DNA of 30,682 nt from the IMG/VR virus record IMGVR_UViG_2526164662_000036; one strand, written 5' to 3'. Positions 19,287-19,676 of the stretch are shown here, piece after piece; the first letter of the stretch is position 1, and each line of letters opens with the position of its first letter. This stretch comes from a virus. Its lineage: Duplodnaviria; Heunggongvirae; Uroviricota; Caudoviricetes. The translations under genes and the position numbers were made by a program. Below the pieces are notes generated by a model. That model made no database searches. It worked only from the letters and a program-made list of their open reading frames with translations, and was not told the DNA's origin.

Positions 19287-19676
19287 TCAGGACTTTTCCG
19301 GCGTCAGCGCCTCATGCTCATCATCCCCGGCATTATCAATGGCCCCCATACCGCTCAGCGACAGAACCATCTCCGCCCCCGCCCCCAGGGCATCATACGA
19401 CCATGTTGTAATAACGGATGCGCAAAGCGTCTCTACATCCTTAGACTGATCCGCATTCCACAGTGAGCGGGAAACCAGCCAGGCATTGATATCCATCCCC
19501 ATCCGCAGAAAAGCAATCTGTCGTTCAGCCTCCGGCAGTTCTCCCTCCCCGGCATCAAACTTTGCCGTTCGCTGCTGAACAAACGCCAGATATTCAATTC
19601 TCTGCAGCCCGGACAGCTCACTGAGCACCACGGACTGTTTTTCATAATTAAACGTGTCCTGTTTCAGAAACATCAT
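19287..19676 (-). CDS. G: tail assembly chaperone G
   Basis: 129 aa, between V and T/H; ends ...EALTPEKS with a candidate slip site G-GAA-AAG in its last codons. Confidence 0.8.
   Translation of the reverse strand: MMFLKQDTFNYEKQSVVLSELSGLQRIEYLAFVQQRTAKFDAGEGELPEAERQIAFLRMGMDINAWLVSRSLWNADQSKDVETLCASVITTWSYDALGAGAEMVLSLSGMGAIDNAGDDEHEALTPEKS

What the first reader, a model, noticed from the sequence alone, without database searches (positions are those of the whole stretch)
19287..19310. G-T tail chaperone frameshift site with a non-canonical heptamer (G GAA AAG instead of lambda's G GGA AAG)
The T frame (-1 relative to G) is open only for the last 8 codons of G, because a TGA in the T frame lies just upstream. 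The only slippery-looking sequence in that interval is G-GAA-AAG (plus-strand CTTTTCC at 19293-19299), at the position of the lambda GGGAAAG site. The P-site codon would re-pair poorly after slippage, so efficiency may be low or the mechanism may be single-tRNA (Lys) slippage.
Basis: partly seen in the sequence, partly recalled or inferred. Interest (0 to 1): 0.4.

Follow-up and report, generated by a model that had tools for sequence, protein, structure and literature searches.

The report
Common tail-chaperone frameshift site, already annotated
This is the ribosomal slip site that lets a lambda-like prophage make its G-T tail-assembly fusion protein, and its "odd" sequence GGAAAAG is the normal form in this gene family and is already annotated in phages N15 and phi80, so it is ordinary.

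Summary
On the minus strand, gene G (19676..19287, Pfam Phage_TAC_2) overlaps a -1 frame carrying the T domain (Pfam Phage_tail_T). That frame is open only from 19311, after a TGA at 19314-19312. The only slippery sequence in the 8-codon overlap is G GAA AAG (19299..19293). It aligns exactly with lambda's G GGA AAG.

It is not unusual. Among 163 distinct G proteins (23 lineages at 70% identity), 20 lineages use G GAA AAG and 3 use G GGA AAG. The GenBank records of N15 and phi80 already mark GGAAAAG as "slippery sequence for -1 translational frameshift".

Heptamer positions 1, 2 and 4-7 never vary, while flanking synonymous sites vary freely. The preceding codon changes (GCG, CCG, CTG, ACG, GTG, ATG) but always ends in G. 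This favours two-tRNA slippage, with tRNA-Glu re-pairing on GGA through a middle G·U pair, over Lys-only slippage.

No conserved downstream RNA structure was found. A GAGG lies 10 nt upstream in this clade and in Gifsy-2, but not across the family. Frameshift efficiency has not been measured.

This copy probably cannot build tails, because an IS66-family element splits the tape-measure gene.

The parts
19287..19676 (-). Gene G, the tail assembly chaperone: 129 aa from the first ATG. Homologues begin MFLK, so the second ATG at 19673 may be the true start. Stop TGA at 19289-19287.
   Evidence: Translation. Pfam Phage_TAC_2, E=2.8e-40. 99% identical to G of mEp460, cdtI and Tritos.
19293..19299 (-). 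Slippery heptamer G GAA AAG (Glu-Lys in the G frame; GGA AAA in the -1 frame). Proposed site of the -1 shift.
   Evidence: Homologous in position to lambda's G GGA AAG. Positions 1, 2 and 4-7 are invariant in 67 distinct junctions. The same heptamer is annotated as the slippery sequence in N15 and phi80.
18949..19311 (-). Open stretch of the -1 (T) frame. After the shift, translation continues GTC CTG ACG... from 19293 to the stop at 18951-18949. The predicted G-T fusion is 242 aa.
   Evidence: Pfam Phage_tail_T, E=5e-15. Fusion sequence. The T frame aligns without gaps from the heptamer to the LAREF motif in 25 lineages.
19312..19314 (-). TGA in the T frame. It sets the upstream limit of where a productive shift can occur.
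19310..19313 (-). GAGG, a Shine-Dalgarno-like tetramer exactly 10 nt upstream of the heptamer. Possible auxiliary stimulator; unproven.
   Evidence: Present at 10 nt in 18 of 18 distinct G genes of this clade and in Gifsy-2. An SD-like core lies 9-11 nt upstream in 9 of 23 lineages, against a 12-18% background.
19276..19278 (-). ATG in the T frame, used by database annotations as the start of a separate 'T' protein. Probably not a real start.
   Evidence: Annotations. 121 of 163 distinct homologues have no T-frame ATG between the upstream T-frame stop and the LAREF motif, and Gifsy-2 has none at this position.
19734..20552 (-). Major tail tube gene (a lambda V homologue with a C-terminal Ig-like domain), upstream of G.
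   Evidence: Pfam Phage_TTP_12 at 8e-67 and Big_2 at 5e-12.
17303..18977 (-). 5' part of the tape-measure gene (lambda H homologue). It starts at ATG 18977 and overlaps the end of T.
   Evidence: Pfam TMP_2 at 5e-50. Collinear with the mEp460 tape-measure gene up to the insertion point.

Best explanation
This is the programmed -1 ribosomal frameshift site of a lambda-type G/G-T tail assembly chaperone gene pair. Most ribosomes translate G to its TGA and release the 129-aa chaperone. A small fraction slip back one base while tRNA-Glu (on GAA) and tRNA-Lys (on AAG) occupy the P and A sites. tRNA-Lys re-pairs perfectly on AAA. tRNA-Glu re-pairs on GGA with a G-C pair, a middle G·U pair and an A-U pair. 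Translation then continues in the T frame (GTC CTG ACG...) to give a 242-aa G-T fusion. By analogy with lambda, its G part binds the tape-measure protein and its T part recruits the tail tube protein.

Shown here: the gene identities, frames, position and conservation of the site, and the invariance of all three synonymous positions of the heptamer.

Inferred: that slippage occurs at all, that it involves both tRNAs, and that the yield is around a percent or so.

In this genome the product is probably useless, because the tape-measure gene is split by an insertion sequence.
For: Gene identities and the order V-G-T-H come from Pfam.

The frames and the 22-nt overlap were read directly.

The position matches lambda's site. 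The T frame aligns without gaps from the heptamer to LAREF in 25 lineages, while the G stop lies anywhere from 0 to 5 codons downstream of the heptamer.

Of 320 loci in which a G gene was found, 316 have one of two heptamers in the overlap: GGAAAAG (294) or GGGAAAG (22). The other 4 have disrupted G genes. Of 23 lineages at 70% identity, 20 have GGAAAAG.

Positions 1, 2 and 4-7 are invariant in 67 distinct 30-nt junctions, whereas neighbouring third codon positions show all four bases.

Position 1 is G behind six different codons (GCG, CCG, CTG, ACG, GTG, ATG). Elsewhere in these genes G occupies 47.7% of four-fold third positions. The chance value is 0.477^6 = 0.012, or 4e-8 if the 23 lineages are treated as independent.

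AAG is always used although AAA is the commoner Lys codon elsewhere in G (663 against 363). GAA is never replaced by GAG.

Lineages with GGGAAAG are scattered on a rough tree, so the two heptamers have interconverted and appear interchangeable.

The N15 and phi80 records annotate this exact heptamer as the slippery sequence, and phi80 carries a joined gpG-T CDS. Gifsy-2 carries the identical ACG CCG GAA AAG TCC TGA and is annotated as a frameshift hybrid.

From the literature, A_AAG is the most shift-prone tetramer in E. coli (PMC4066793). An A·U to G·U change costs only about 5 kJ/mol at the P-site position that was measured, and is partly offset by the favourable AAG to AAA re-pairing (PMC6787027).
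Against: No frameshift product has been demonstrated for this heptamer in anything I could read.

In a reconstituted E. coli system, AUG GAA AAG gave mainly 0-frame product at all EF-G concentrations. The authors treated it as the 'less slippery' control for G GGA AAG (PMC6924986).

Without stimulators even the best heptamers give only about 0.3%, and A_AAG gives about 0.15%, in a reporter (PMC4066793). I found no conserved downstream structure: the single-sequence z-score is -0.82 and the alignment fold is -1.27 kcal/mol with z = -1.2.

The lineages are related, so the conservation probabilities are upper bounds on significance.

The energetic cost of a second-position G·U pair in the P site has not been measured.
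Confidence: 0.72

Rival explanations
1. Single-tRNA slippage. Only tRNA-Lys slips from AAG to AAA on the tetramer A_AAG, for example in the P site while the A site waits. tRNA-Glu pairing plays no part. The fusion product would be the same.
For: A_AAG alone supports -1 shifting in E. coli: 5.6% with a strong pseudoknot (PMC4066793). It is used naturally at G_CGA_AAG in IS1222 and occurs at A_CGA_AAG in Bacillus cdd (PMC5009743). The P-site re-pairing here has a second-position mismatch that biochemists regard as unfavourable (PMC6924986). In the Proteus clade the G stop codon directly follows AAG (G GAA AAG TAG), which would suit P-site slippage at a slow stop.
Against: Heptamer position 1 is G in all 67 distinct junctions, behind six different preceding codons. 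That base is not translated in the T frame, and no coding or stop-codon constraint explains it. It matters only if tRNA-Glu re-pairs on G-G-A. The only alternative heptamer seen is G GGA AAG, which also allows P-site re-pairing. The codon following AAG is not a conserved slow codon.
Confidence: 0.2
2. T is made as a separate 109-aa protein from the ATG at 19278, 8 nt after the G stop, by independent initiation or termination-reinitiation. This is how most database records annotate it. The heptamer would be irrelevant.
For: An ATG in the T frame lies at 19278-19276, just downstream of the G stop, with GGGA a few bases upstream. The mEp460, PhiR47_1 and RefSeq E. coli records annotate a separate T CDS starting there.
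Against: The ATG is not conserved. 121 of 163 distinct homologues have no T-frame ATG before the conserved domain, and Gifsy-2, the nearest outgroup, lacks it. The T-frame residues between the heptamer and that ATG (VLTRE) align with conserved residues in all lineages. The T frame is always open back to the heptamer. In lambda, T functions only as part of the fusion (established knowledge: Levin 1993; Xu 2013, 2014, as cited in PMC5009743).
Confidence: 0.05
3. The frame change is made at the RNA level: RNA polymerase slips on the A run and produces mRNAs with one extra or one missing A.
For: None specific. The site contains a run of four A.
Against: The invariance of G1, G2 and the final G is not explained by polymerase slippage.
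Confidence: 0.01

Closest known systems
Bacteriophage lambda G / G-T programmed -1 frameshift (G GGA AAG; Levin, Hendrix and Casjens 1993)
   Same: Homologous G and T domains (Pfam PF06894 and PF06223). Same gene order V-G-T-H. T is in the -1 frame. The slip site is at the identical alignment position, with Lys followed by Val and the conserved ...F..LARE motif. No conserved downstream structure.
   Different: Heptamer position 3 is A instead of G, so the P-site codon is GAA (Glu) rather than GGA (Gly). Re-pairing therefore involves a second-position G·U pair. The overlap is 22 nt against 61 nt, and G ends one codon after the site rather than five. G is only about 33% identical.
Phage N15 genes 14/15 and phage phi80 gpG / gpG-T
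   Same: Exactly the same heptamer, G GAA AAG, at the same position. It is annotated in both GenBank records as 'slippery sequence for -1 translational frameshift', and phi80 also has a joined gpG-T CDS.
   Different: The preceding codon is GCG (Ala) rather than CCG (Pro). The following bases are CCC rather than TCC. G continues five more codons. There is no SD-like GAGG upstream. G is about 34% identical.
Salmonella prophage Gifsy-2 STM1039 / STM1041.1n (annotated 'G+G' frameshift hybrid')
   Same: Nearest distinct relative, with G 56% identical. It has the identical 18 nt ACG CCG GAA AAG TCC TGA, and GAGG exactly 10 nt upstream.
   Different: The C-terminal region of G and the T sequence are otherwise diverged. 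There is no T-frame ATG after the G stop.
E. coli dnaX -1 frameshift (A AAA AAG with an upstream SD and a downstream hairpin)
   Same: The A-site codon is AAG, read by the single E. coli tRNA-Lys. In this clade an SD-like element lies 10 nt upstream; in dnaX the SD-like AGGGAG is also 10 nt from the heptamer in the construct printed in PMC6924986.
   Different: No downstream hairpin. The P-site re-pairing is near-cognate. The expected efficiency is a few percent or less rather than about 50-80%. The SD-like element is not conserved across the family.
A_AAG tetramer frameshift sites (IS1222 G_CGA_AAG; Bacillus cdd A_CGA_AAG)
   Same: They contain A_AAG, with a preceding codon that cannot re-pair canonically (PMC5009743).
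   Different: Here the base before the P-site codon is strictly conserved and gives two Watson-Crick pairs plus one G·U pair after the shift. The site therefore behaves like a heptamer in evolution.

Membership tests
Lambda-type G / G-T tail assembly chaperone with programmed -1 frameshift | The upstream ORF is a gpG homologue | tested here: met
   Pfam PF06894 Phage_TAC_2, E=2.8e-40, covering residues 2-122 of 129.
Lambda-type G / G-T tail assembly chaperone with programmed -1 frameshift | A T domain is encoded in the -1 frame, overlapping the 3' end of G | tested here: met
   Pfam PF06223 Phage_tail_T, E=5e-15. The frame is open from 19311 and overlaps G by 22 nt.
Lambda-type G / G-T tail assembly chaperone with programmed -1 frameshift | Located between the major tail tube gene and the tape-measure gene | tested here: met
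   Phage_TTP_12 upstream; TMP_2 and Tape_meas_lam_C downstream.
Lambda-type G / G-T tail assembly chaperone with programmed -1 frameshift | A slippery sequence in the overlap, in the G frame, conserved among relatives | tested here: met
   G GAA AAG or G GGA AAG is present in 316 of 320 loci. Six of the seven positions are invariant.
Lambda-type G / G-T tail assembly chaperone with programmed -1 frameshift | The heptamer is of the canonical X XXY YYZ form | tested here: not met
   G GAA AAG: positions 2 and 3 differ, so the P-site tRNA re-pairs with a G·U pair at the middle position. This is a feature of the textbook motif, not of family membership. N15 and phi80 are accepted members with the same heptamer.
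Lambda-type G / G-T tail assembly chaperone with programmed -1 frameshift | A G-T fusion protein is produced at a low fixed ratio to G and is needed for tail assembly | not testable with these tools
   Needs a protein-level experiment.
dnaX-like stimulated -1 frameshift | A Shine-Dalgarno-like element about 10 nt upstream of the heptamer | tested here: inconclusive
   GAGG at 19313..19310 with a 10-nt spacer, in 18 of 18 distinct G genes of the clade and in Gifsy-2. It is present in only 9 of 23 lineages (binomial p about 0.014 against an 18% background). It also coincides with a conserved Glu codon, so protein-level selection may explain it.
dnaX-like stimulated -1 frameshift | A stable downstream hairpin or pseudoknot 5-9 nt after the heptamer | tested here: not met
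   93 nt downstream folds at -38 kcal/mol, z = -0.82 against shuffles. The 25-lineage alignment fold is -1.27 kcal/mol, z = -1.2, with no conserved helix near the site.
Single-tRNA A_AAG tetramer frameshift sites | A_AAG in frame, with no requirement on the base preceding the P-site codon | tested here: not met
   A_AAG is present, but the base before GAA is G in 67 of 67 distinct junctions despite six different codons.

The most novel reading that the evidence does not exclude
G GAA AAG, a heptamer that biochemists use as a poorly slippery control, is in fact the selected and probably ancestral slip site of the lambda-like tail chaperone family in Enterobacterales. It works by two-tRNA slippage with a second-position G·U pair in the P site. 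Both slipping tRNAs (Glu and Lys) carry the mnm5s2U34 modification; the Glu assignment rests on 'tRNA Lys/Glu/Gln' in PMC3296357. The G:G-T ratio of these very common prophages would then be even more dependent on the host tRNA-thiolation state than lambda's. The site would also give a natural system for measuring tolerance of a middle-position wobble during frameshifting.
Probability: 0.5. Interest if true: 0.35.

Novelty: already known. Interest (0 to 1): 0.15.

Why it matters
It matters little for discovery. The G/G-T frameshift is a textbook case, and this exact heptamer has been marked in the N15 and phi80 records.

Two practical points follow. First, annotation pipelines still call a separate 'tail assembly protein T' from a non-conserved ATG. 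They do so in about a third of complete E. coli genomes (1847 of 5426 carry this module) and in phages such as mEp460, cdtI and Ayreon. The real product is almost certainly a joined G-T protein.

Second, motif-based frameshift finders that require X XXY YYZ will miss the majority form of this family. The comparative data here give a clear rule for it: a six-position-invariant GGRAAAG with G1 conserved at a synonymous site. They also point to an unmeasured quantity, the in vivo efficiency of a heptamer with a second-position G·U pair.

Tried and rejected
1. Downstream stimulatory RNA structure. The single-sequence fold is not better than shuffles. The predicted helix starts right after the heptamer, where the ribosome would already have unwound it. 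The 25-lineage alignment fold shows nothing conserved. Rejected.

2. The stop codon next to the site as a stimulator. The G stop lies 0, 1 or 5 codons after the heptamer in different lineages, so it is not a family feature.

3. A separate T protein from ATG 19278. The start is not conserved.

4. Transcriptional slippage. The A run is only 4 nt.

5. Upstream GAGG as a general stimulator. It is enriched but present in only 9 of 23 lineages and is confounded with a conserved Glu codon. It is kept only as a clade-specific possibility.

6. Literature. Xu, Hendrix and Duda 2004 and Licznar et al. 2003 are not held, so I could not check whether GGAAAAG was listed or measured there. Full-text searches for the heptamer with 'phage' and 'slippery' found only the EF-G study.

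7. A three-way DNA alignment meant to locate the insertion-sequence borders was uninformative, as was the repeat search. BLAST against the intact mEp460 gene gave the borders instead.

Full report
**1. What is in the sequence**

The feature lies on the minus strand. An ORF runs from 19676 to 19287 and encodes MMFLKQDTF...EALTPEKS*. It matches Pfam Phage_TAC_2, 'bacteriophage lambda tail assembly chaperone, protein G', at E=2.8e-40.

The frame one base back (-1) has a TGA at 19314-19312. It is then open from 19311 to a stop at 18951-18949. Its product matches Pfam Phage_tail_T at 5e-15.

Upstream lies a lambda-V-like tail tube gene. Downstream lies a tape-measure gene.

The two frames overlap for 22 nt: GAG GCG CTG ACG CCG GAA AAG TCC TGA. 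The only sequence there that allows tRNA re-pairing is G GAA AAG, at 19299..19293.

The heptamer alone is not statistically remarkable. It occurs 8 times in the window against 4.7 expected. The case therefore rests on frame, position and conservation.

**2. Where it comes from**

The 851 bases around the site are 98-99.5% identical to phages Tritos, mEp460, HannyBb, cdtI, Ayreon and others. They are present in 1847 of 5426 complete E. coli genomes.

None of the three phage records I inspected joins G and T. mEp460 and PhiR47_1 annotate a separate T starting at the ATG equivalent to 19278, and Ayreon starts it further downstream. The E. coli RefSeq hits likewise list a separate 'phage tail assembly protein T'.

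**3. Position relative to lambda**

In lambda the fusion reads ...SAGK|VFDGELSFALKLAREM. Here a shift at G GAA AAG gives ...TPEK|VLTREMQFVMRLAREF.

In 25 diverse lineages the T frame aligns without a single gap from the heptamer to the conserved F...LAREF...DW motif. By contrast, the upstream end of the T frame varies from 13 to 160 nt, and the G stop lies 0 to 5 codons after the heptamer. The heptamer is therefore the fixed point of the arrangement.

**4. The heptamer is the family norm and is already annotated**

Gifsy-2, whose G is 56% identical, has the identical ACG CCG GAA AAG TCC TGA. phi80, mEp043 and N15 have GCG GAA AAG.

The phi80 record FN582354 and the N15 record NC_001901 both carry a misc_feature 'slippery sequence for -1 translational frameshift'. 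In both, its coordinates spell GGAAAAG. phi80 also has a joined gpG-T CDS.

I gathered further loci from one scan of species-representative genomes and four scans of viral contigs. A G gene was found in 320 of them. Of these, 294 have GGAAAAG in the overlap, 22 have GGGAAAG, and 4 have disrupted G genes.

Collapsed to 163 distinct G proteins and 23 clusters at 70% identity, 20 clusters use G GAA AAG and 3 use lambda's G GGA AAG. On a rough neighbour-joining tree the three GGGAAAG groups are separated by GGAAAAG lineages. These groups are lambda/Stx phages, Serratia/Symbiopectobacterium, and Edwardsiella. The two forms have therefore interconverted more than once by a single A/G transition.

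**5. Evidence of selection on the nucleotides**

In 67 distinct 30-nt junctions, heptamer positions 1, 2, 4, 5, 6 and 7 are invariant. Position 3 is A in 61 and G in 6. The third codon positions just upstream (-3, -6, -9, -12) each show all four bases.

The codon before GAA is GCG, CCG, CTG, ACG, GTG or ATG. These are six codons for six amino acids, and all end in G. Elsewhere in these genes G takes 47.7% of four-fold third positions. The chance of the pattern is 0.012 counting only the six codon types, and far less counting lineages.

Lys is always AAG, although AAA outnumbers AAG 663 to 363 elsewhere in G. Glu is never GAG.

Position 1 is not translated in the T frame and creates no stop-codon issue. 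Its conservation is best explained by re-pairing of the P-site tRNA-Glu on G-G-A.

**6. Mechanism**

The best reading is classical two-tRNA -1 slippage with a near-cognate P site. tRNA-Lys moves from AAG to AAA, a favourable change for the single E. coli tRNA-Lys. tRNA-Glu moves from GAA to GGA, keeping its first and third pairs and forming G·U in the middle.

In the thermodynamic analysis of dnaX variants, an A·U to G·U change cost about 5 kJ/mol at the measured P-site position. The AAG to AAA change gave back about 2.9 kJ/mol (PMC6787027). The second codon position was not measured there.

Against high efficiency, AUG GAA AAG gave mainly 0-frame product in a reconstituted system and served as the 'less slippery' control (PMC6924986). 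In reporters without stimulators, even the best heptamers give about 0.3% and A_AAG about 0.15% (PMC4066793).

Lambda needs only about 4% frameshifting, a ratio of about 30:1 (PMC3296357, PMC5009743). A weak site may therefore be adequate, but the actual efficiency is unknown.

**7. Stimulators**

No downstream structure is supported.

Upstream, GAGG lies exactly 10 nt before the heptamer here, in all 18 distinct G genes of this clade, and in Gifsy-2. This matches the spacing of the SD-like AGGGAG in the dnaX construct printed in PMC6924986.

Across the family an SD-like core sits 9-11 nt upstream in 9 of 23 lineages, against a background of 12-18% (p about 0.014). The two largest clades lack it. 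It also coincides with a conserved Glu codon followed by a G-initial codon. It is therefore a clade-specific possibility, not a demonstrated element.

**8. Rivals**

Lys-only slippage on A_AAG is well precedented (PMC5009743), but it does not explain the invariant position 1.

A free T protein from ATG 19278 is contradicted in two ways. That ATG is not conserved: 121 of 163 homologues have none, including Gifsy-2. The T-frame residues upstream of it are conserved.

Transcriptional slippage is implausible on four A.

**9. State of this copy**

Compared with the intact mEp460 gene, the tape-measure gene here is interrupted by a 2532-bp IS66-family element at 14771-17302. The element is flanked by an 8-bp target duplication, CAGCATTT. 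This prophage probably cannot build tails. The frameshift site here is then an unchanged copy of a functional element rather than one now under selection in this genome.

**10. Verdict**

The finding is ordinary: a textbook recoding site whose 'non-canonical' heptamer is the commonest form in its family and has been annotated as such in N15 and phi80.

Two things remain unmeasured: the in vivo efficiency of this near-cognate heptamer, and whether both tRNAs slip.

Noticed in passing
window 14771-17302 (target duplications at 14763-14770 and 17303-17310): A 2532-bp IS66-family insertion sequence splits the tape-measure gene. It carries three ORFs: an HTH transposase at 16792-17217, TnpB_IS66 at 16445-16795 and a DDE IS66 transposase at 14801-16414. 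Its ends begin GTAAGCGT, and it is flanked by the 8-bp direct repeat CAGCATTT. The prophage is therefore probably tail-defective.
   Followed up: yes
window 19690-19716, minus strand: An intrinsic-terminator-like hairpin with a T run (GCCCCGG TTAT CCGGGGC TTTTTT) sits between the major tail gene and G. The same element is annotated as a rho-independent terminator in mEp460, Ayreon and N15. It might lower G/T/H transcription relative to the abundant tube protein.
   Followed up: partly
L098, L100, L102, L103 (Proteus prophages), G-T junction: In the Proteus clade the G stop codon directly follows the heptamer (CTG GAA AAG TAG). The 0-frame A site is therefore a stop codon right after the slip site. 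This arrangement could favour P-site slippage at a slow stop.
   Followed up: no
L135-L147 (genome-contig hits): Short, low-coverage contigs in assemblies of unrelated organisms (Kitasatospora, Neobacillus, Oceanobacillus, Pseudomonas, Shewanella, Leeuwenhoekiella, Pseudoxanthomonas and others) carry a lambda-like G gene with identical match statistics. L135 has exactly lambda's junction. This is most likely lambda DNA contamination of those assemblies.
   Followed up: partly
L253, L254, L256, L312: Four viral-contig relatives have a G reading frame that runs into unrelated sequence and contains no heptamer in the overlap. They appear to be frameshifted or degraded copies.
   Followed up: no
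window 19276-19278 and database records: GenBank and RefSeq annotations of this module call T as a stand-alone CDS from a non-conserved ATG, and none of the mEp460-group records inspected carries a joined G-T CDS. This looks like a systematic annotation gap affecting about a third of complete E. coli genomes.
   Followed up: partly
window 19671-19676, minus strand: G begins with two adjacent ATG codons (MMFLK). All more distant homologues begin MFLK, so the second ATG may be the true start.
   Followed up: no
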